Of a stretch of 64,000 nucleotides of DNA, positions 42,143-63,301 are shown piece by piece. Source of the DNA: Planctomycetota bacterium (GTDB lineage Bacteria; Planctomycetota; UBA1135; UBA2386); the NCBI GenBank assembly GCA_965223545.1, contig OZ245006.1, positions 5,120,001 to 5,184,000 of the forward strand, in the 5' to 3' direction. Numbering within the stretch: the first letter of the stretch is position 1; each line of letters opens with the position of its first letter. A program made the position numbers and the translations under genes. The notes below the pieces were generated by a model, which was given only the letters and a program-made list of their open reading frames with translations, did not search any database and was not told the DNA's origin.

Positions 42143-42181
42143 CGGGGGCCGCGATTGATGAATCGGAGCCTGACCTGAAAC

Positions 42182-43564
42182 TCACCCAGCCTCGGCGATC
42201 GGTATGAGCTTGTACCCGAGGGATTTAGCGTTCTGTCGGAGTCCGACGATGCGTCGCTGGGTGAAGCGCTCCTCGTAGGCCTTGGCGCCTTCGTCTACGT
42301 AGTCCTGGCCGAACTTCAGCATGCGGTAGATGAGCAGGGCCAGTTTGCGGGCGATGGCAAAGATGGCGACGTTGCCGTCCTTCGCGCGGGCGATCTTGCG
42401 GAAGTGTGCGCCGAGAGCTGTCTGAGTACGTTGGAGGGACAGGGCGGCCATCCGGAGGACCGTGGCGATCCTGCTGACCGCGATGTTGTTGCGGTGCTTC
42501 TTGATGCGCTTTCCACCCGAGACGGCTTGACGTGGGCACAGGCGTAGCCAGGAGACGAAGTGCTTCTCGGTCGGGAAAGCTTCGAGGTCGTAGCCGACCT
42601 CGGTGAGCACGATCATGGCCGTGCTCGGGCTGATACCGTCGATTCGCGTGAGATCACACCCGACGAGCCGGCAGAGGGCATCGCGAAGCTCCCGGCCGCC
42701 CTTCGTTCGGATGCTCCTCTCCTTGCGGGGGTCTGGATGCTCGGGGACGTCGGCCGTCTTGGCTTCCTCCGGTTGCAGGTCCTCGATCATCGCCATCAAT
42801 CGCTTCTCGACCGACTCGATCTCGTGGTCGGTGTGCTCGAGCATCCGCAAGCCCGAAGCGAGAGTGAAGATGTGCTCCTCGATCCAGGTCCCTTGCAAGT
42901 GATCCGCGAGCTCCTTCTCGGAGATCTTGCAGCGCGGATCACGCAGTCTGGCGAGCGCTCGAGGGTCGCGTTCACCAGCGAGAATCGCGCGGATGATCGC
43001 GAGGCCGGTCTTGCCGGTGATGTCCGTTACCGCGCGATGGATCGCCACGTTCATCTGATCCAGTGACCGCTGCATCAACTGCGTGTGGCGCGTGCGCTGC
43101 GCGATCAAAGACGCGGCATGGCGTTGCAGGGTCCGCAACGCACAGATGTCCTTCGGAGGCCGGAACGAAGCGCGAATGAGGCCATAGGTGTGTAGCTTCT
43201 GCAGCCAACTGCAATCGCTGGCATCGGACTTGGAGCGGCCCGGCACGTTCTTCACCTCGCGGGCATTCGCGAGGATGACCTCGAAGCCTCTCGACTCGAG
43301 TAGCTCGTAGACGGGAATCCAGTAGACATAGGTGCTCTCCATCGCGACGGATCGCACTCCGAGCTCCTCCAGCCAGTCCGCGAGCGCCTCTAGCTGGGGC
43401 GTCGTCGTTCCGAATCGCTTGATCGGACGACTGCCGTCGGGTGCTGCTGCGCACACCCAGTGCTCGCGGCTGCCGATGTCGATTCCGGCGGCGTTGGGCT
43501 TCACGACTGGCAATACTTCCGCTGCGGGCTTCTTGCCCTTCCTCGTTCTGCTCTTCCCAGCCAT
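42182..43564 (-). CDS. IS110-family recombinase/transposase (copy A)
   Basis: AGIDIG, AMESTY, KSDASD; IDGIS...F....FVSWL.LCP...SGGK; AIARKLA. Protein identical to 59897..61279. Confidence 0.95.
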   Translation of the reverse strand: MAGKSRTRKGKKPAAEVLPVVKPNAAGIDIGSREHWVCAAAPDGSRPIKRFGTTTPQLEALADWLEELGVRSVAMESTYVYWIPVYELLESRGFEVILANAREVKNVPGRSKSDASDCSWLQKLHTYGLIRASFRPPKDICALRTLQRHAASLIAQRTRHTQLMQRSLDQMNVAIHRAVTDITGKTGLAIIRAILAGERDPRALARLRDPRCKISEKELADHLQGTWIEEHIFTLASGLRMLEHTDHEIESVEKRLMAMIEDLQPEEAKTADVPEHPDPRKERSIRTKGGRELRDALCRLVGCDLTRIDGISPSTAMIVLTEVGYDLEAFPTEKHFVSWLRLCPRQAVSGGKRIKKHRNNIAVSRIATVLRMAALSLQRTQTALGAHFRKIARAKDGNVAIFAIARKLALLIYRMLKFGQDYVDEGAKAYEERFTQRRIVGLRQNAKSLGYKLIPIAEAG

Positions 43565-43814
43565 ACTTCATCCTCATTGTTGTGGTGGGCCCGGCCCGAG
43601 GCGGCGATCAAACGAATCTGACCTGCGGGAGTGGGCACGGCGACGTGCCCCTCACCAGTGAAGGATGGCCAACTCGGACCCAGACTGGCTCTGGGGCAAA
43701 CGTGCTCCAGTGGCTATTGGGGGCGTAGCTGCCGGGCCCCTCACACGTTCCCCTCCCCCTTCCTCAGCGGCTAGTTTCCTGCCCTGAAGGGCCGACAAAT
43801 CTGCCGGGGCAGGA
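43565..43814 (-). ncRNA. Candidate bridge RNA, IS110 element 2 copy A
   Basis: Same non-coding left end as copy B. Confidence 0.6.
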
Positions 43815-57067: not shown

Positions 57068-57874
57068 ATGGTTGGCATGCGCTTGATCTCCGTTGTCCTG
57101 TTGGCAGCTTCCGCGCCCTGCTTCGTTCTCTCGGAGCCGCGCCGCGAGCAGAGCGCCGTCGCGGTCCTTGGCACGTTTCACATGGCCAACCCCGGCCGTG
57201 ACGTGGTCAACGCAAACGTCGACGACGTGCTCTCCGAGGATCGTCAGCAGCAGCTCCAGGAGCTGTGTGACCTCTTGGCTGCCTTCGAACCGACGCACAT
57301 CGCGGTCGAGGCCGTGCCGGACCGCGCCGACGAGTTGGCGCGGCGCTACGCGGAGTACCGCGCCGGCACGCTGGAGCCCGATCGCAACGAGATCGTGCAG
57401 GTCGCGTTCCGCCTCGCGGACGCACTCGGGCACGAGCGCGTTTGGCCCGTGGACCATCGGCAGGACATGGCGATTGGCTCGGTGATGCAGTACGCGCAGC
57501 AGAACGACCCCGCCGCCGCCGCGCTGCTGGGCGAGTGGCGCGGGAAGATGCAGGCCACGCTGGACGAGGTCATGGCCAAACCGATCGTCGACATCTTCCG
57601 CTGGGCGAACCACCCCGACCGCGCCGCGGAGCACGACGCCGTCTACCTTCGCATGGCGCAGATCGGCGGTGGAGACACAATGGTCGGAGCGCAGGCGGTC
57701 GGCACATGGTACGCGCGCAACCTCGCGATCTTCGCGAACGTCGCCGCACTGGCCAGCGATCCTGACGCGCGGGTGCTGGTCCTGATCGGCGCCGGACACG
57801 CCCCTCTCCTCTGCGACTTCGTCCGCGGCGCGGACAACCTCGACCTGATCGACATCACCGAAGTCCTGAAGTGA
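57068..57874 (+). CDS. DUF5694-like exported protein
   Basis: VLGTFHMANPG.D, DDVLS..RQ, F.PTHIAVE, NEIVQ.AFRLA, WYARNL.IF.N, LIGAGH. Confidence 0.8.
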   Translation: MVGMRLISVVLLAASAPCFVLSEPRREQSAVAVLGTFHMANPGRDVVNANVDDVLSEDRQQQLQELCDLLAAFEPTHIAVEAVPDRADELARRYAEYRAGTLEPDRNEIVQVAFRLADALGHERVWPVDHRQDMAIGSVMQYAQQNDPAAAALLGEWRGKMQATLDEVMAKPIVDIFRWANHPDRAAEHDAVYLRMAQIGGGDTMVGAQAVGTWYARNLAIFANVAALASDPDARVLVLIGAGHAPLLCDFVRGADNLDLIDITEVLK

Positions 57875-57903
57875 CGGTACGGAGTCAGGCTCCGTACCGT
57901 CAG
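57871..57903. repeat. REP-like palindrome, unoccupied IS110 target homolog
   Basis: GTGACGGTACGGAGT-CAG-GCTCCGTACCGTCAG; 31/33 identical to the site reconstituted around IS110 copy B. Confidence 0.9.
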
Positions 57904-57921
57904 GCTCGGTACGGAGATCCG

Positions 57922-59697
57922 ATGGCACATGGCTTCGTTCGCTCGCTCGTCCCAGCCCTGGTCTTGATACCGGCACTGGCCGCAGCCACCCAAGACCGGT
58001 CGCAGCGGGCAGCCGAGGAACGTGCGCTGATCGAGGGGGCAGTGGGCGATCCGCTGTCGCAGCGCGCGGCCGAGGCGTTCAACAAGCGCGACTGGCAGGA
58101 GGCCGAGCGAGCCTACGCCGCGCTCGTCGAGCGGGACCCGGCCGACGAGCGCGCTTGGTTGCGGCTCGGAACGGCACTGCACGCGCAGCAGAAGCTGGAC
58201 GCGGCGCTGCGGGCGTACGAGCACGCACTGGACTTCCCCAGCGCTGCCTACAACGCCGCTTGCATCCATGCGCTGCGCGGCGCTACGGACTTGGCACTCG
58301 ACCGGCTCCGCTCCGCGGTTGAAGTTGGGTTCCTCGATTTCGAGCACGCGCGGCGCGACCCGGATCTGTCGAACCTGCACGAAGACCCGGCCTTCGCGGC
58401 CGTGCTCGCGGCGATGGAGCGGCGGATGAAGACGCCGCTGCCCGAGGCGGTCCTCGGTCAGGCCGCGCCCGACTTCGAGCTCACCGACGTCGACGGCCGA
58501 CGCCATCGGCTCGAGTCGTACCGTGGGCGAATCGTCGTCCTCGAATGGACGAGCCACACGTGCCCGACGGTTGCACGCTACCACGAGTCGGCGAGACTGC
58601 CGGCGTCGGTCGCCGGTGTGACCGGCGATGACCTCGTGTGGCTCGCCATCGACTCCGGCGCAGAATGTGACGAGTGGGTCGACGCGATCCGAGAGTGGCG
58701 CTCGACGGTCGGCCACCGCCGCCCCTACCTGCTGGACCCATCGGGCGCGACGGGTCACCGCTACGGAGCGCAGGCGACACCTCAGATTTTCGTGATCGAC
58801 GGTTCCGGAGTGCTGCGCTACTCGGGGACTGTCGACGACGAAGGCGCGACCATCGACTACGTCGCCGCGACGGTCGCGGCGTTGCGCGAGGGTCGCGACC
58901 CGGCACCGACTTCCACCGAGCTCCGTGGCTGCACGATCAAGTACGCATCGGTGCTGCCAGGATTCGTCGCTGCCGACGTGTGGCAGTGCCCGCCCTGCGG
59001 CCTGCCGTGCGATCGCATCGTGTTCGCGACGCCGGGCCGCTGCCCGCAGTGTCGCATGGTCCTGGCCGCTCGAGTGCGGCGCAACGTGCAGACCGCGGCG
59101 AAGCCACACGCACAGCCGTTGTTCGACGCGGCCCGGATCGCCGCAAGAGCGGGTGAAGCGCAGCCGTGTCTCGCGAGCTTGCGTGCCGCGTTGGTCGCCG
59201 GCTTCGCGACACCCTCCAGGGTTCTGAGCGACGACGCGTTCGCCCCGCTGCTCGCCGTGCCCGAACCGCGCGCGGCGCTCCGCGAGCTGTTGGCCGAGTT
59301 CGCGAGCGAGTCGACGGCGACCATTGTCCGCAGCACGGAGCCCGGCAATCGCCTGCGGCTCGAGCTCACGATTCATGAAGCGGCGGGTACGCCCGTCGTC
59401 GACGCGCGCGTGGACCTGTACCAGACCGACGCTGCGGGCATCTACGATCCGGTGCACGGTTCGGAGAACCCACGTCTGTTCGCCAGCCTCGTTAGCGATC
59501 GCGACGGCCGCCTGGTCATCGACACGATCGTGCCCGCGGGCTACCCGGACGCGGACGTCTCCCCGCACGTTCACTACGTCGTCGAGACTGCCGGCGGGAC
59601 ACGCGACAGCGGCGAGATCGTGAGGAGAGTGACGGTACGGAGCCAGTCCTGCCCCGGCAGATTTGTCGGCCCTTCAGGGCAGGAAACTAGCCGCTGA
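57922..59697 (+). CDS. Multidomain exported protein: TPR + redoxin + CxxC metal-binding + intradiol-dioxygenase-like; 3' end reads into IS110
   Basis: TPR (AWLRLG..L, YNAAC..AL.G), APDFELTD.DG...VVLEWTSHTCP, WQCPPC...C...PGRCPQC.M, YQTDAAG.Y..., TIVP..YP...PHVHY; last 17 or so codons come from the IS left end. Confidence 0.78.
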   Translation: MAHGFVRSLVPALVLIPALAAATQDRSQRAAEERALIEGAVGDPLSQRAAEAFNKRDWQEAERAYAALVERDPADERAWLRLGTALHAQQKLDAALRAYEHALDFPSAAYNAACIHALRGATDLALDRLRSAVEVGFLDFEHARRDPDLSNLHEDPAFAAVLAAMERRMKTPLPEAVLGQAAPDFELTDVDGRRHRLESYRGRIVVLEWTSHTCPTVARYHESARLPASVAGVTGDDLVWLAIDSGAECDEWVDAIREWRSTVGHRRPYLLDPSGATGHRYGAQATPQIFVIDGSGVLRYSGTVDDEGATIDYVAATVAALREGRDPAPTSTELRGCTIKYASVLPGFVAADVWQCPPCGLPCDRIVFATPGRCPQCRMVLAARVRRNVQTAAKPHAQPLFDAARIAARAGEAQPCLASLRAALVAGFATPSRVLSDDAFAPLLAVPEPRAALRELLAEFASESTATIVRSTEPGNRLRLELTIHEAAGTPVVDARVDLYQTDAAGIYDPVHGSENPRLFASLVSDRDGRLVIDTIVPAGYPDADVSPHVHYVVETAGGTRDSGEIVRRVTVRSQSCPGRFVGPSGQETSR

Positions 59698-59896
59698 GGA
59701 AGGGGGAGGGGAACGTGTGAGGGGCCCGGCAGCTACGCCCCCAATAGCCACTGGAGCACGTTTGCCCCAGAGCCAGTCTGGGTCCGAGTTGGCCATCCTT
59801 CACTGGTGAGGGGCACGTCGCCGTGCCCACTCCCGCAGGTCAGATTCGTTTGATCGCCGCCTCGGGCCGGGCCCACCACAACAATGAGGATGAAGT
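59647..59896 (+). ncRNA. Candidate bridge RNA, IS110 element 2 copy B
   Basis: Stems TCCTGCCC/GGGCAGGA, GGGCCCGGC(59722-59730)/GCCGGGCCC(59866-59874), GGGCACG/CGTGCCC; target-like GAGCCAG (59770-59776); donor-like CAGGTCAG (59836-59843). Confidence 0.65.
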
Positions 59897-61279
59897 ATGG
59901 CTGGGAAGAGCAGAACGAGGAAGGGCAAGAAGCCCGCAGCGGAAGTATTGCCAGTCGTGAAGCCCAACGCCGCCGGAATCGACATCGGCAGCCGCGAGCA
60001 CTGGGTGTGCGCAGCAGCACCCGACGGCAGTCGTCCGATCAAGCGATTCGGAACGACGACGCCCCAGCTAGAGGCGCTCGCGGACTGGCTGGAGGAGCTC
60101 GGAGTGCGATCCGTCGCGATGGAGAGCACCTATGTCTACTGGATTCCCGTCTACGAGCTACTCGAGTCGAGAGGCTTCGAGGTCATCCTCGCGAATGCCC
60201 GCGAGGTGAAGAACGTGCCGGGCCGCTCCAAGTCCGATGCCAGCGATTGCAGTTGGCTGCAGAAGCTACACACCTATGGCCTCATTCGCGCTTCGTTCCG
60301 GCCTCCGAAGGACATCTGTGCGTTGCGGACCCTGCAACGCCATGCCGCGTCTTTGATCGCGCAGCGCACGCGCCACACGCAGTTGATGCAGCGGTCACTG
60401 GATCAGATGAACGTGGCGATCCATCGCGCGGTAACGGACATCACCGGCAAGACCGGCCTCGCGATCATCCGCGCGATTCTCGCTGGTGAACGCGACCCTC
60501 GAGCGCTCGCCAGACTGCGTGATCCGCGCTGCAAGATCTCCGAGAAGGAGCTCGCGGATCACTTGCAAGGGACCTGGATCGAGGAGCACATCTTCACTCT
60601 CGCTTCGGGCTTGCGGATGCTCGAGCACACCGACCACGAGATCGAGTCGGTCGAGAAGCGATTGATGGCGATGATCGAGGACCTGCAACCGGAGGAAGCC
60701 AAGACGGCCGACGTCCCCGAGCATCCAGACCCCCGCAAGGAGAGGAGCATCCGAACGAAGGGCGGCCGGGAGCTTCGCGATGCCCTCTGCCGGCTCGTCG
60801 GGTGTGATCTCACGCGAATCGACGGTATCAGCCCGAGCACGGCCATGATCGTGCTCACCGAGGTCGGCTACGACCTCGAAGCTTTCCCGACCGAGAAGCA
60901 CTTCGTCTCCTGGCTACGCCTGTGCCCACGTCAAGCCGTCTCGGGTGGAAAGCGCATCAAGAAGCACCGCAACAACATCGCGGTCAGCAGGATCGCCACG
61001 GTCCTCCGGATGGCCGCCCTGTCCCTCCAACGTACTCAGACAGCTCTCGGCGCACACTTCCGCAAGATCGCCCGCGCGAAGGACGGCAACGTCGCCATCT
61101 TTGCCATCGCCCGCAAACTGGCCCTGCTCATCTACCGCATGCTGAAGTTCGGCCAGGACTACGTAGACGAAGGCGCCAAGGCCTACGAGGAGCGCTTCAC
61201 CCAGCGACGCATCGTCGGACTCCGACAGAACGCTAAATCCCTCGGGTACAAGCTCATACCGATCGCCGAGGCTGGGTGA
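59897..61279 (+). CDS. IS110-family recombinase/transposase (copy B)
   Basis: DEDD motifs and SGGK serine motif; identical to 42182..43564. Confidence 0.95.
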   Translation: MAGKSRTRKGKKPAAEVLPVVKPNAAGIDIGSREHWVCAAAPDGSRPIKRFGTTTPQLEALADWLEELGVRSVAMESTYVYWIPVYELLESRGFEVILANAREVKNVPGRSKSDASDCSWLQKLHTYGLIRASFRPPKDICALRTLQRHAASLIAQRTRHTQLMQRSLDQMNVAIHRAVTDITGKTGLAIIRAILAGERDPRALARLRDPRCKISEKELADHLQGTWIEEHIFTLASGLRMLEHTDHEIESVEKRLMAMIEDLQPEEAKTADVPEHPDPRKERSIRTKGGRELRDALCRLVGCDLTRIDGISPSTAMIVLTEVGYDLEAFPTEKHFVSWLRLCPRQAVSGGKRIKKHRNNIAVSRIATVLRMAALSLQRTQTALGAHFRKIARAKDGNVAIFAIARKLALLIYRMLKFGQDYVDEGAKAYEERFTQRRIVGLRQNAKSLGYKLIPIAEAG

Positions 61280-61312
61280 GTTTCAGGTCAGGCTCCGTAC
61301 CGTCACCCCTAC

Positions 61313-63301
61313 CCCAACTTCCGCAGTTCGACGGGTCGTCACGTTGAAAAGCAACGACTTACGTCGATTGGTTGGCACTACATCGCGGTCGAACGGAGTG
61401 GCGCGGGGACGGATAGCCTCCTGGGTAGCTGGATGCCGAGCCGGTCGAGCAGGTGCGCCTGCGCCTCGTTGGGGGTGACCACGCAGCGGACCCGGAGTTC
61501 GCGGCCGTCAGTAGTTGGCAGGAGCACGTCTGCGCTTTGGACCTGACGGAGCTCCTCGAGGATGGCGGCCGGGCTGTTGCCGAGTCCGGCCTTCTCCTGC
61601 CAGAGCTCGAGCGTTTTCCACAAGGCGTAGGCGAGGAAGCAGACGAGGATGTGCGCCCTGACCCGGTCCTCGCGTTGATGCCACACCGGGCGGATCGACA
61701 GCTCGGACTTCTGGATCCGAAACGCGGACTCAGCATCAGTGAGCTGGATGTACGTCCGCCAAAGCTCCTCATCTGTCCAACCCGTCACGTTGGACCTGAG
61801 CAGGTAGCACCCGGCGCTCTGGTCCACCCAGTTCGTGTTCTCACAAGCCTCCACGGCAAGCCCCGATGGTCGATCCGGGGCTTCGATCAACGAAACCGAG
61901 AAGCACGTGGAGGCCCGCGAGTTCTGGGCCAAGATGCGTCCGATCTGTTGATTGACGCGGTCCCGTTCGATCGACTTCTTCGACGCCGCCAGTCGGCGTT
62001 CGAGCGACGCAAGCCTCGCGCGAATGCGTTCGGCTGCTCGCGCGACAATTGCGGCGTCCTTCTCGATGCGCGCCTGGGAGCGACACAGGATGAACGTCTC
62101 CTCCCCGTCCTCGCTCGGGCAGAGCTTGACCTCGACATCCTCACGAATGCTGCGCCAGTCTCGACGGTCGACGATCTCCTGTTCGAAGCGGCGCAGGTCC
62201 GAACGCGATGCGCCGATGACGTACCGTCGCCTTCCCTCCTTCAACCATTTCAGGTTGCGCTTGCTCACCATTCCGCGGTCCATGACCCAGATGCGATCAG
62301 CAGCACCGAATCGCCGCTCCATCGTCTCGACGATCTCGCGGACCGTCGTGACGTCAGTCCGATTGCCGTCGAACACTTCGTGCGCAAGAGGGATTCCCTG
62401 TCTGGTCACGACCAGAGCGATGCAAACCTGTTTGCAGTCAGGCCGGTGATCTCGGCTGTAGCCACGCTGCGCCTGGGGGTTGCCCAGCATGAGGCCTTCG
62501 AAGTAGGTCGAGGTCACGTCGTAGAGCAGCAAGTCGTACTGAACGTCGAACAACTCGCCGAGCCGTGCGCGGAGATGCTGCTCCAGCGCCTCTTTGTGCG
62601 GCAGGATCTGGTCGAGAGCCCGGTAGAGCCGGTCGTCGTTGACCTTGCCTTCCGGCAGGCCAAGCAGGTCGTCAAGCGCGGTCTGGCGGTACAGGACTTC
62701 AGCCAGGTGCAGCTCGCTGGAGGGCATGCACAACCGACAGATGACCATCGCTGCCGCCATCGTCGACCACGGGACATCTTCACGGCCCCGCGGCATGAGC
62801 TCCCAGAGTGCGTCGTCGAACTTCAGTGCGTGCCACAGCGCCAGGCCGACGAAAACGTCGCCGAAGCGGCGTGTCCGGTCGAGGCTGACCTCCTTCAAGC
62901 GAATCGACTCGACCGGGTCGTCGTCTGTCACCGGTGGCTCAAACAGGCTCGGGTGCATTCGGCGACCGGTCATCCGATCTGCCAGCGCACGAGCCCGGCG
63001 TCGCCCCTTCGCATCCAGTTTGCCCAGCTGCGCGATCACCTCCTGCCGCACTCGACGACCGTGCCGCACCGACCGAACGAGGAGCCAGTACTCGTGGGTC
63101 TTGCCGTTCTTTCTGACCGTCTTGCGTCGCAGGTACACGTCCGCCGCCTCGCACACAGTTGTCGTGCTCCCTGCCACACCGATCAACGGGGCGGGTTGGC
63201 ACTACACGGCCGATCTGCGCCGCCGCGACGGTGGATAGCGGGCTGGCGCCGCGCCGAGGCTCCGAATTGGCCTCAAAAATCGTCGAGCTGCGGAAGTTGG
63301 G
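61313..63301 (-). mobile_element. IS1634-family insertion sequence
   Basis: Terminal IRs CCCAACTTCCGCAG(T/C)TCGACG, 20/21 (61313-61333, 63281-63301); flanking direct repeat CTAC (61309-61312, 63302-63305). Confidence 0.92.
61378..63138 (-). CDS. IS1634-family DDE transposase
   Basis: LYDVTSTYFEG, RGYSRDHRPDCKQV, VMDRGM, Y..L..AESAFR..K..L..RPVWHQ...RV.AHI.VCFLAY; GTG start at 63138. Confidence 0.94.
   Translation of the reverse strand: MYLRRKTVRKNGKTHEYWLLVRSVRHGRRVRQEVIAQLGKLDAKGRRRARALADRMTGRRMHPSLFEPPVTDDDPVESIRLKEVSLDRTRRFGDVFVGLALWHALKFDDALWELMPRGREDVPWSTMAAAMVICRLCMPSSELHLAEVLYRQTALDDLLGLPEGKVNDDRLYRALDQILPHKEALEQHLRARLGELFDVQYDLLLYDVTSTYFEGLMLGNPQAQRGYSRDHRPDCKQVCIALVVTRQGIPLAHEVFDGNRTDVTTVREIVETMERRFGAADRIWVMDRGMVSKRNLKWLKEGRRRYVIGASRSDLRRFEQEIVDRRDWRSIREDVEVKLCPSEDGEETFILCRSQARIEKDAAIVARAAERIRARLASLERRLAASKKSIERDRVNQQIGRILAQNSRASTCFSVSLIEAPDRPSGLAVEACENTNWVDQSAGCYLLRSNVTGWTDEELWRTYIQLTDAESAFRIQKSELSIRPVWHQREDRVRAHILVCFLAYALWKTLELWQEKAGLGNSPAAILEELRQVQSADVLLPTTDGRELRVRCVVTPNEAQAHLLDRLGIQLPRRLSVPAPLRSTAM

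What the first reader, a model, noticed from the sequence alone, without database searches (positions are those of the whole stretch)
59647..59896. Candidate bridge RNA with visible target-like and donor-like guide segments
Seen: the 250-nt non-coding left end is highly structured, with a 9-bp stem (59722-59730/59866-59874) enclosing several hairpins. Inside, in the order expected from IS621 (target loop, then donor loop), are GAGCCAG (59770-59776; 7/7 to left target plus core) and CAGGTCAG (59836-59843; 8/8 to the element right end plus core). Both end exactly at the CAG core. Caveats: GAGCCAG can also fold into a CCCAGA/TCTGGG hairpin that mimics the target loop, GGAGC at 59753-59757 is an alternative target guide, and I could not confidently place the right-hand guides.
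Basis: partly seen in the sequence, partly recalled or inferred. Interest (0 to 1): 0.82.

Follow-up and report, generated by a model that had tools for sequence, protein, structure and literature searches.

The report
Bridge RNA of an IS110-family element
The 250-base left end of a 23-copy insertion sequence encodes a folded guide RNA with one short stretch matching the insertion site and another matching the element's own end, as in known bridge RNAs but laid out differently.

Summary

- **Element.** 59647-61291 is an IS110-family insertion sequence: 250-nt left end, 460-aa DEDD/Ser recombinase, 12-nt right end. The genome holds 23 full copies.
- **RNA fold.** The left end folds into a conserved RNA. 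23 of 34 pairs show compensatory changes across 91 distinct homologues.
- **Target guide.** GAGCCAG (59770-76) tracks the left flank. In 45 of 67 homologous loci the locus's own 7-mer lies upstream, against 53 of 4280 mismatched pairings. There are 42 distinct 7-mers.
- **Donor guide.** CAGGUCAG (59836-43) tracks the right end in 53 of 56 loci. 9 of 12 loci with a variant guide match their own end.

Corrections:
- The family-invariant core is AG, not CAG.
- GGAGC (59753-57) is a stem strand, not a guide.
- The CCCAGA/UCUGGG hairpin is not conserved.

Differences from IS621:
- Both left guides lie 3' of their module's stem-loop.
- No right donor guide was found, and the right target guide signal is weak. 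Multi-copy relatives share no right flank.
- A 5-bp subterminal inverted repeat (GTTTC/GAAAC) covaries.

RNA expression could not be tested.

The parts
59640..59646 (+). Left target GAGCC (59640-44) plus core AG (59645-46), part of a REP-like palindrome
   Evidence: 23 of 23 copies have ..GAGCCAG on the left. 86 empty sites read GAGCCAG+GCTCC.
59647..61291 (+). IS110-family insertion sequence, 1645 bp including the right copy of core AG
   Evidence: 23 full copies at 99.4-100% identity, with boundaries set by the flanks.
59654..59669 (+). GC-rich terminal hairpin (CCGGCA..TGTCGG) just inside the left end
   Evidence: Read. A hairpin sits at the same place in the homologues. In the 6 variant copies G59657A makes the stem perfect. 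Role unknown.
59683..59687 (+). GAAAC, inner arm of the subterminal inverted repeat
   Evidence: Reverse complement of GTTTC in the right end. Variant pairs covary in 4 of 6 cases.
59722..59730 (+).
   Evidence: 9 of 10 P1 pairs show changes on both sides across 91 distinct sequences. Coordinates.
59737..59783 (+). Target module: P2 (59737-40/59780-83) encloses a 5' loop, hairpin P3 (59753-57/59764-67) and a 3' loop carrying the target guide
   Evidence: Consensus fold and pair counts.
59746..59752 (+). Tentative right target guide: AGC (59746-48) complementary to GCT of the right flank, CA unpaired, CU (59751-52) complementary to core AG
   Evidence: In 55 unique loci the loop bases before the conserved CAYU pair with right-flank positions 1-3 more often than in permutations (z 3.2). 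Multi-copy relatives share no right flank, so this is weak.
59770..59776 (+). Left target guide GAGCCAG (5 nt plus core AG), same sense as the top strand of the left flank
   Evidence: Own 7-mer lies 60-200 nt upstream in 45 of 67 loci, against 53 of 4280 mismatched pairings. 42 distinct 7-mers.
59777..59777 (+). Base after the target guide. It tends to equal the first base of the left end, so it may act like a handshake position
   Evidence: Identical in 46 of 57 loci, MI 0.58 bit.
59784..59865 (+). Donor module: P4 (59784-88/59861-65) encloses a 5' loop ending CACU (59801-04), the long hairpin P6 (59805-16/59823-34) and a 3' loop carrying the donor guide
   Evidence: The G:C to A:U change at pair 96:154 in 3 sequences favours extending P6 over the predicted P5.
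59836..59843 (+). Left donor guide CAGGUCAG, same sense as the last 8 nt of the element (family level: 7 nt, 59837-43)
   Evidence: 53 of 56 loci match their own right end by at least 7 nt. 9 of 12 loci with a non-majority guide match their own variant end.
59866..59874 (+). P1 3' strand
59897..61279 (+). IS110-family recombinase, 460 aa. D29, E76, D114, D117 and S349 align with the IS621 catalytic residues
   Evidence: Pfam. NCBIfam NF033542. PDB alignment to IS621 8wt6. Residue numbers.
61280..61284 (+). GTTTC, outer arm of the subterminal inverted repeat, directly after the stop codon
   Evidence: Present in 53 of 59 unique right ends. Variants covary with the left-end arm.
61285..61291 (+). 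Left donor AGGTC plus core AG (the element's right terminus)
61292..61296 (+). Right target GCTCC (other arm of the REP-like palindrome)
   Evidence: 22 of 23 copies.
42170..43814 (-). Second identical copy of the element in this window

Best explanation
59647-59896 is the non-coding left end of an active-looking IS110-family insertion sequence. Its core, about 59719-59879, encodes a bridge RNA read from the + strand.

Fold. Stem P1 closes a junction that holds two look-alike modules. Each module reads: stem, a 5' loop ending CAYU, a stem-loop beginning GG(N)G, one spacer base, then a 7-8-nt guide ending in AG.

Guides. The first module's guide, GAGCCAG, has the sense of the top strand of the left target plus core. 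[quoted passage not shown] The second module's guide, CAGGUCAG, does the same for the element's right end in the excised or joined donor form.

Reaction. The recombinase (DEDD plus Ser) would exchange strands at the AG core. The element would then land in ..GAGCC-AG-.. sites, here the centre of a REP-like palindrome.

Right halves. They appear to be read little or not at all by RNA. The conserved YU of CAYU may pair only with the core, and in this element AGC may add three pairs to the right flank. A covarying 5-bp inverted repeat (GTTTC in the right end, GAAAC in the left end) probably helps define the donor.

Shown here: element boundaries, copy number, recombinase family, structure covariation, and guide/target and guide/donor covariation.

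Inferred: that the RNA is made and bound by the recombinase, the pairing strands, the chemistry (by analogy with IS621), and the roles of YU and of the inverted repeat.
For: Boundaries and target:
- 23 full copies share exact ends and the left flank ..GAGCCAG. 22 of 23 have GCTCC on the right.

Recombinase:
- NF033542 'IS110 family RNA-guided transposase', 247.9 bits against a cut-off of 140.
- Pfam DEDD_Tnp_IS110 plus Transposase_20.
- Catalytic D/E/D/D and Ser align with IS621.

Structure:
- MAFFT alignment of 12 homologues: 36 predicted pairs, 15 with compensatory change.
- 96 model hits, 91 distinct: 96.8% of cells paired against 85.0% in shuffles and 34-56% when the partners are slid. 23 of 34 pairs change on both sides. 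0 of 500 shuffles reach the observed value.
- G-U pairs, for example 58 of 91 at the first P2 pair, fit only the + strand.
- The model hits 37 places in 75 homologue loci, all on the ORF's strand.

Target guide:
- 45 of 67 loci against 53 of 4280 controls, with 42 distinct 7-mers.
- 40 of the 45 matches lie 66-79 nt upstream of P1.
- At the boundary so found, 44 of 57 left ends read GCC at positions 5-7. This is an independent check of the boundary.

Donor guide:
- 53 of 56 loci. 9 of 12 loci with a variant guide match their own right end.

Single-sequence chance of both words: 0.14%.

No base differs among the 23 copies within 59719-59879.
Against: - No RNA evidence. No run on record as RNA holds the stretch, and the simple scans found no sigma-70-like promoter or terminator in 59500-60000.
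- Rfam 15 has no matching family.
- The fold of the single sequence is only marginally better than shuffles (z -1.99).
- Two of the four guides that define the IS621 bridge RNA were not found. Anchored complementarity to core plus right target, or core plus right donor, equals the controls (means 3.98 vs 3.87 and 3.81 vs 3.83). Region-wise tests are flat.
- 22 of 67 loci lack a 7-nt match of their own guide upstream, and 3 of 56 lack a match at the right end.
- Left boundaries in the homologues were placed using the guide match itself. Hence the per-column identity is circular, and only the mismatched-pairing control and the window's own 23 copies are independent.
- A2 was fitted to the model's structure, which flatters the pair counts.
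- Metagenome loci were retrieved with a pattern that fixes some scaffold bases, though no guide or flank base.
Confidence: 0.88

Rival explanations
1. It is a canonical four-guide bridge RNA like that of IS621. Right target and right donor guides exist but are short, discontiguous or misaligned, so my tests missed them.
For: - The 5' loop bases before CAYU pair with right-flank positions 1-4 above permutation: position 1, 0.58 vs 0.41 (p 0.0055); position 4, 0.55 vs 0.34 (p 0.0005); sum over positions 1-3, z 3.2.
- In this element AGC 59746-48 is complementary to GCT of the right flank.
- 22 of 23 copies sit in REP-type sites, although these are only 5.5% of the 1969 GAGCCAG heptamers (binomial P about 4e-27). 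So something beyond 7 nt acts.
- The IS621 right target guide has only 2 non-core bases and its right donor guide is discontiguous (passages of PMC11208160 and PMC11208158).
Against: - Three copies of one relative share the left flank GCTCTAG but have right flanks ATCCCG, GTCGGG and CGCACG.
- Six bounded copies of another relative have six unrelated right flanks.
- No column or segment covaries with the first bases of the left end apart from position 1.
- The REP bias could instead come from target DNA structure (abstract of preprint 10.64898/2026.03.19.712850) or from selection against insertions in genes.
Confidence: 0.35
2. The matching words act as DNA, not RNA. They would be internal copies of the junction sequences serving as recombinase binding or decoy sites, with the conserved fold incidental.
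For: - No transcript evidence.
- The inverted repeat GTTTC/GAAAC shows that DNA-level or end-to-end symmetry matters in this family.
Against: - Helices keep pairing through compensatory changes and G-U pairs that would be A-C on the other strand. That is selection on a single-stranded + strand molecule.
- The protein belongs to the family shown experimentally to use such RNAs (passages of PMC11208160 and PMC11187229).
Confidence: 0.04
3. It is a structured 5' leader that controls translation of the transposase, and the guide-like matches are chance.
For: - The structure ends 22 nt before the start codon, next to a GAGGA ribosome-binding site.
- Each word alone is not rare by chance: 7.5% and 1.5%.
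Against: - The words change with the flanks in homologues: 45 of 67 against 1.2% in controls, with 42 distinct 7-mers. Variant donor guides follow their own ends.
- A leader role is not excluded as a second function.
Confidence: 0.03

Closest known systems
IS621 bridge RNA (IS110 group; Durrant et al. 2024, PMC11208160; Hiraizumi et al. 2024, PMC11208158; passages and section 12 read)
   Same: - Encoded in the long left end upstream of a DEDD/Ser recombinase, with a short right end.
- Two pseudo-symmetric modules, target first and donor second.
- The left guides have the sense of the top strand and include a 2-nt core.
- The target guide varies freely among relatives, while the donor guide is more conserved.
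- The target is a REP-like palindrome.
   Different: - The core is AG, not CT.
- The guides are 7-8 nt, against 9 and 8 in IS621.
- The left guides lie 3' of each module's stem-loop. The IS621 order is stem, LTG, stem loop, RTG.
- The right target guide is at best weak, and no right donor guide was found.
- A single P1 closes both modules.
- A covarying 5-bp subterminal repeat replaces the 2-3 bp one.
- The recombinase is 460 aa against 326 aa, and only distantly similar (E 2e-10).
seekRNAs of IS1111-family elements (Siddiquee et al. 2024, PMC11187229; passages read)
   Same: - Subterminal inverted repeats are present.
- If the 5' loop is the top-strand reader, the order is top-strand match 5' of bottom-strand match, as reported for the IS1111 type.
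   Different: - The non-coding region lies upstream of tnp, which is the IS110-type location.
- The repeat is 5-6 bp, not 7-17 bp, and its inner arm lies about 37 nt inside the left end.
- The top-strand match is not established here.
- The protein's place in the IS110/IS1111 tree was not tested.
ISPpu10, and REP-targeting IS110 elements generally (preprint 10.64898/2026.03.19.712850, abstract read; ISPpu9, PMC12288879, search listing only)
   Same: All insertions fall in copies of one repeated intergenic palindrome. Specificity exceeds what the guide length alone explains.
   Different: A requirement for target stem-loop structure is untested here. The relation between these elements and the present one is unknown.

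Membership tests
IS110-family bridge RNA (IS621 type) | Lies in the non-coding end of an element encoding a DEDD (RuvC-like) plus Tnp (Ser) recombinase | tested here: met
   Pfam PF01548 plus PF02371. NF033542 at 247.9 bits. D29/E76/D114/D117/S349 align with IS621.
IS110-family bridge RNA (IS621 type) | Conserved structured RNA with two modules (target-binding and donor-binding) | tested here: met
   15 of 36 pairs compensatory on the MAFFT alignment. 23 of 34 on 91 distinct sequences, with 0 of 500 shuffles as high.
IS110-family bridge RNA (IS621 type) | Left target guide covaries with left target plus core | tested here: met
   45 of 67 loci against 53 of 4280 mismatched pairings. The window's own 23 copies agree.
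IS110-family bridge RNA (IS621 type) | Left donor guide covaries with the right end plus core | tested here: met
   53 of 56 loci. 9 of 12 variant guides match their own end.
IS110-family bridge RNA (IS621 type) | Right target guide complementary to the top strand of core plus right target | tested here: inconclusive
   Weak register-specific signal (z 3.2). Anchored and segment tests are flat. Multi-copy relatives share no right flank.
IS110-family bridge RNA (IS621 type) | Right donor guide complementary to the top strand of core plus left-end start | tested here: not met
   No column, anchored or segment signal. Only position 1 of the left end follows the base after the target guide.
IS110-family bridge RNA (IS621 type) | Within each module the order is stem, left guide, stem loop, right guide | tested here: not met
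   Here the left guides follow the stem-loops P3 and P6. IS621 order from passages of PMC11208158.
IS110-family bridge RNA (IS621 type) | Conserved core dinucleotide at both junctions and in both guides | tested here: met
   AG is invariant in both guide columns of A1 and at both junctions. The dinucleotide is AG, not CT.
IS110-family bridge RNA (IS621 type) | RNA is expressed and bound by the recombinase | not testable with these tools
   No RNA run is listed for this organism.
IS1111-type seekRNA | Non-coding region downstream of tnp | tested here: not met
   The left end is 250 nt and the right end 12 nt.
IS1111-type seekRNA | Subterminal inverted repeats of 7-17 bp | tested here: inconclusive
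   A covarying repeat exists but is 5-6 bp and asymmetric.

The most novel reading that the evidence does not exclude
Only the left half of the target and the left half of the donor (5-6 nt plus AG) are read by programmable guides. These guides sit on the 3' side of each module. The right halves are touched only at the core, by a fixed YU. The donor is further defined by a covarying GTTTC/GAAAC repeat. That would be a natural minimal design. It fits recent claims that IS110 elements move mainly by top-strand transfer (abstract of preprint 10.1101/2025.10.25.684509). It would also explain why some relatives insert exactly at the right ends of sibling elements.
Probability: 0.4. Interest if true: 0.65.

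Novelty: new variant of a known kind. Interest (0 to 1): 0.52.

Why it matters
Bridge RNAs are being developed as programmable recombination tools, and almost all mechanistic knowledge comes from IS621 and close relatives. This clade offers natural material for several questions:
- It has a different core (AG), a different placement of the guides, and apparently no programmable right-hand guides.
- It therefore gives a natural test of which guide contacts recombination really needs, and of how specificity is topped up. REP structure and the subterminal repeat are candidates.
- 42 or more naturally reprogrammed target guides are on hand for comparison.

For the genome itself, the finding explains a 23-copy repeat and its strict association with one REP family.

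Tried and rejected
- **Rfam 15** scan of 59000-62000 at E up to 1: only three chance hits (snoRNA, miRNA, HOTAIR), no IS110 RNA family.
- **Promoter and terminator** scan of 59500-60000: none found. A junction promoter spanning right end and left end is at best 2-3 of 6 per hexamer by eye.
- **Sequencing runs:** no RNA holder listed. Read laying was not used, because the four holders are DNA contigs.
- **Right target and right donor guides.** All of these tests were flat: column-wise complementarity and mutual information, anchored contiguous pairing with or without G-U, and longest matches per RNA segment in both senses, including the 5' part of the left end. The one exception is the weak 5'-loop register.
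- **GGGCAGGA 59677-84**, complementary to the left-end start in this element, is not conserved in relatives.
- **GGGGCA in P6**, complementary to left-end bases 4-9, is seen in a few relatives only and was judged chance.
- **P5 hairpin** (GCCA/UGGU) of the RNAalifold fold was rejected. It has no compensatory change and 13 and 10 unpaired cells. It is broken in the three sequences that keep the alternative pair 96:154.
- **Naming via plasmids.** tblastn against plasmids returned only 'IS110 family transposase', so placement in the IS110 versus IS1111 protein tree was not done.
- **Plasmid relative.** Model R1 finds nothing in a Citrobacter plasmid relative at 43% protein identity.
- **Earlier findings:** none on record.
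[quoted passage not shown] No supplements were opened.
Full report
**What is there.** The region 59647-59896 is followed by a 460-aa ORF (59897-61279). The ORF carries Pfam DEDD_Tnp_IS110 (residues 26-171, E 1.3e-26) and Transposase_20 (305-383, E 4.7e-14). It scores 247.9 bits against NCBIfam NF033542 'IS110 family RNA-guided transposase', whose cut-off is 140. Against solved structures it matches only the IS621 and ISCro4 transposases (E 2.3e-10 and 2.7e-09). The acidic residues and the serine that are catalytic in IS621 line up with it. These are D29, E76, D114, D117 and S349 (numbering; IS621 residues D11/E60/D102/D105/S241 from passages of PMC11208158).

**Boundaries, copies and target.** The window's genome (8.1 Mb, 2 contigs) holds 23 full-length copies at 99.4-100% identity.
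- Aligning the flanks puts the element at 59647-61291. That is a 250-nt left end, a 12-nt right end after the stop codon, and 1645 bp in all.
- 17 copies are of this form. 6 are a 1646-bp variant.
- All 23 left flanks end ..GAGCCAG (22 read GTACGGAGCCAG), and 22 of 23 right flanks begin GCTCC.
- The uninterrupted target is a REP-like palindrome..GTACGGAGCC-A-GGCTCCGTAC... 86 empty sites of the form GAGCCAG+GCTCC remain in the genome.
- Among the 23 copies the left end varies at only four places (59657, an insertion after 59661, 59707, 59885). None lies within 59719-59879.
- A second identical copy lies in this window at 42170-43814 on the minus strand.

**Check of the observation.** The 9-bp stem, GAGCCAG at 59770-76 and CAGGTCAG at 59836-43 are all as described.
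- In 20000 dinucleotide shuffles of the left end, the two words occur in 7.5% and 1.5% of shuffles, and together in 0.14%.
- The single-sequence fold is only marginally better than shuffles (-115 kcal/mol, z -1.99).
- Rfam has nothing for the region.
- So within this one sequence the case is suggestive, not strong.

**Comparative evidence: structure.** A protein-guided scan of species-representative genomes gave 75 loci with relatives at 33-78% identity.
- The 12 closest distinct left ends align with a conserved scaffold and variable patches.
- RNAalifold predicts 36 pairs, 15 of them with compensatory change.
- A covariance model built from that alignment (R1) hits 37 places in the 75 loci, all on the ORF's strand.
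- A scaffold-only DNA pattern, with N at every guide position except the AG core, found at least 120 stretches in metagenome contigs.
- R1 then aligned 96 hits, 91 of them distinct (A2).
- On A2, 96.3-96.8% of cells are paired, against 85% in column shuffles and 29-56% when partners are slid by 1-3 columns. 22 of 36 pairs (stored structure) or 23 of 34 (my revision) change on both sides. 0 of 500 shuffles reach the observed values.
- A2 is fitted to the model, which favours it. The MAFFT result is the unfitted check.
- Frequent G-U pairs fix the strand as +.

**The fold in window coordinates.**
- P1: 59722-30 with 59866-74.
- Target module: P2 59737-40 with 59780-83; a 5' loop 59741-52 ending CACU; hairpin P3 59753-57 with 59764-67; then CA; the guide 59770-76; and UCU.
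- Donor module: P4 59784-88 with 59861-65; a 5' loop 59789-804 ending CACU; the long hairpin P6 59805-16 with 59823-34; then G; the guide 59836-43; and a 17-nt tail.
- I replaced RNAalifold's small hairpin P5 with two more pairs on P6. P5 has no compensatory change and 13 and 10 unpaired cells. Pair 96:154 is G:C in 88 sequences and A:U in exactly the three sequences that break P5.
- With that change the two modules read alike:
  - Target module: CAYU-GG(N)GC..GC-CC-N-guide-AG.
  - Donor module: CAYU-GG(N)GAG..CUC-CC-N-guide-AG.

**Comparative evidence: the guides.** I tested each locus's own guide words against its flanks.
- Target guide. I took the 11 bases ending at the target-guide AG column. 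I then looked 60-200 nt upstream of P1 for a site ending in the same bases.
  - Among 67 loci with unique and sufficient upstream sequence, 45 have a match of exactly 7 nt and 51 a match of at least 6 nt.
  - With guides from other loci, 53 of 4280 pairings reach 7 nt (1.2%).
  - There are 42 distinct 7-mers. 40 of the 45 matches lie 66-79 nt upstream of P1.
  - At the boundaries so found, the left end begins with four variable bases and then GCC in 44 of 57 loci, followed by a GC-rich hairpin. This is an independent sign that the boundaries are real.
- Donor guide.
  - 53 of 56 unique loci with a complete ORF match their own sequence by 7-8 nt within 120 nt after the stop codon, mostly 11-13 nt after it.
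  - The guide is usually AGGUCAG (44 of 56).
  - Of the 12 loci with another guide, 9 match their own variant right end (ACACTAG, TGGTTAG, AGGTGAG, AGAGGAG, AGGGGAG, AGGCCAG, and three with GGGTCAG). 3 do not (L026, L027, L150).
- Core. Both guide columns end in invariant AG. The preceding base varies.
- Strand. Both guides have the sense of the top strand. [quoted passage not shown] I looked for the equivalents in several ways.
- Column-wise complementarity and mutual information against 14 nt of right flank (58 loci) and of left-end start (57 loci).
- Contiguous pairing anchored on the core anywhere in the left end. Means were 3.98 vs 3.87 for the right target and 3.81 vs 3.83 for the right donor.
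- Longest matches per RNA segment, in both senses.
- All of these are flat, with two exceptions:
  - The base after the target guide (59777) equals the first base of the left end in 46 of 57 loci.
  - The 5' loop bases just before CAYU pair with right-flank positions 1-4 more often than in permutations. Position 1 is 0.58 vs 0.41 (p 0.0055), position 4 is 0.55 vs 0.34 (p 0.0005), and z is 3.2 in that register against -1.0 to 2.0 in seven other registers.
- In this element that register gives AGC 59746-48 opposite GCT of the right flank.
- Against a general right target guide, two multi-copy relatives share no right flank:
  - Three copies of one relative in one genome share the left flank GCTCTAG but have right flanks ATCCCG, GTCGGG and CGCACG.
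  - Six bounded copies of another relative have six unrelated right flanks.
- My reading is that right-half recognition is minimal in this clade. The conserved YU of CAYU in both modules is complementary to the AG core and may be all there is, with occasional extensions such as AGC here. This is inference, because invariant bases cannot show covariation.

**Extra specificity in this genome.** GAGCCAG occurs 1969 times on both strands, against about 1913 expected from base composition. REP-type sites make up 5.5% of these, yet they hold 22 of 23 insertions (binomial P about 4e-27). Candidate explanations are the AGC contact, the target's stem-loop (reported as a specificity layer for ISPpu10; abstract of preprint 10.64898/2026.03.19.712850), and purifying selection against insertions in genes. 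I cannot separate them.

**Subterminal inverted repeat.** The right end reads stop-GTTTC-AGGTC-AG. The left end carries GAAAC at 59683-87, about 36 nt before P1.
- Of 59 unique right ends, 53 have GTTTC, and 49 of those have GAAAC upstream. At least three of the four without it (L115, L120, L171) have truncated upstream sequence.
- Variants covary in four cases: GTCTC with GAGAC (twice), GTCAC with GTGAC, and GTTAC with GTAAC in L027.
- Two loci with GTTAC do not covary (L024, L175).
- The test of the 5' left end against the left donor picks up only this signal: 23 of 37 loci against 14% in controls.
- Whether it acts as DNA or RNA is open.

**Comparison with known systems.**
- It works like an IS110 bridge RNA in its location, two modules, module order, left guides with a 2-nt core, variable target guide, conserved donor guide and REP target.
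- It differs from IS621 in the following ways (for the IS621 layout):
  - the core (AG rather than CT);
  - guide length;
  - placement of both left guides 3' of the stem-loops;
  - no detectable right donor guide, and a doubtful right target guide;
  - one closing stem around both modules;
  - a longer, covarying subterminal repeat;
  - a recombinase about 130 aa longer.
- Siddiquee et al. report that IS1111-type seekRNAs carry the top-strand match 5' of the bottom-strand match, and that the one IS110-type example has the reverse order (passages of PMC11187229). If the 5' loop is the top-strand reader, this clade has the IS1111-type order in an IS110-type location.
- Durrant et al. state that bridge RNA structures are diverse across the family (section 12 of PMC11208160). 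Their drawings are not held, so I cannot exclude that this layout is among them.
- My two literature searches ('bridge RNA' with IS110, and 'seekRNA') turned up no description of an AG-core clade or of left-guide-only recognition. That is not proof of absence.

**Verdict.** It is a bridge RNA of a previously uncharacterised IS110 clade, with an architecture that departs from the IS621 model in testable ways. RNA expression and guide function remain unshown.

Noticed in passing
window 42170-43814 (-): Second identical copy of the same element in this window, again between ..GAGCCAG and GCTCC.. of a REP-like site.
   Followed up: yes
L114 1939-2103 and 3564-3720; L142; L169; L219; L223, L227, L229-L232: Some relatives carry a target guide (A/G)GGUCAG that equals the right end of sibling elements. 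They sit directly after ..GTTTCNGGTCAG, that is, at another element's right junction. One genome has six or seven such copies. These insertion sequences appear to be aimed at the ends of related insertion sequences and form arrays.
   Followed up: partly
G000:C1:4826058-4829693 (outside the window): Tandem duplication of a unit made of 173 bp of flank plus the element. The first copy's right end is joined to ..GCCGTAG|CAGACACC, a site that ends in the AG core but otherwise matches the guide poorly. This could be an off-target or half-matched recombination, or an assembly artefact.
   Followed up: partly
window 59683-59687 and 61280-61284: A covarying 5-bp subterminal inverted repeat (GAAAC/GTTTC) in an element with the IS110-type layout. 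Its inner arm lies about 37 nt from the crossover and its outer arm 7 nt.
   Followed up: yes
window 59777: The base following the target guide's AG equals the first base of the left end in 46 of 57 relatives. This would extend pairing onto the left junction product, on the bottom strand. The IS621 handshake guides act on the top strand.
   Followed up: partly
window 57871-59697 (+): The upstream ORF (608 aa; TPR, Redoxin/AhpC-TSA and Dioxygenase_C domains) runs 51 nt into the element before reaching a stop. The insertion has therefore replaced its original 3' end or stop.
   Followed up: no
window 61378-63186 (-): A 602-aa DDE_Tnp_1 transposase ORF lies about 90 nt downstream, so a second, unrelated insertion sequence sits next door.
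   Followed up: no
genome-wide: A REP-like family with the centre GTACGGAGCCAGGCTCC has 86 empty and 22 occupied sites, often in pairs or with a second arm ..ATTCATCACC.
   Followed up: partly
left flanks of relatives: Many left targets carry TTC or TCC just 5' of the five guide-matched bases, resembling the GTTTC that precedes the donor's matched bases. This hints at a shared non-programmable contact. It was not quantified, and this window's own target (GTACG) lacks it.
   Followed up: no
L216 (Citrobacter freundii plasmid NZ_CP141648.1): Recombinase relatives at 43% identity sit on many Enterobacterales plasmids (66 Citrobacter records among 1333 matching records). Model R1 does not detect a similar RNA next to the one I fetched.
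   Followed up: partly
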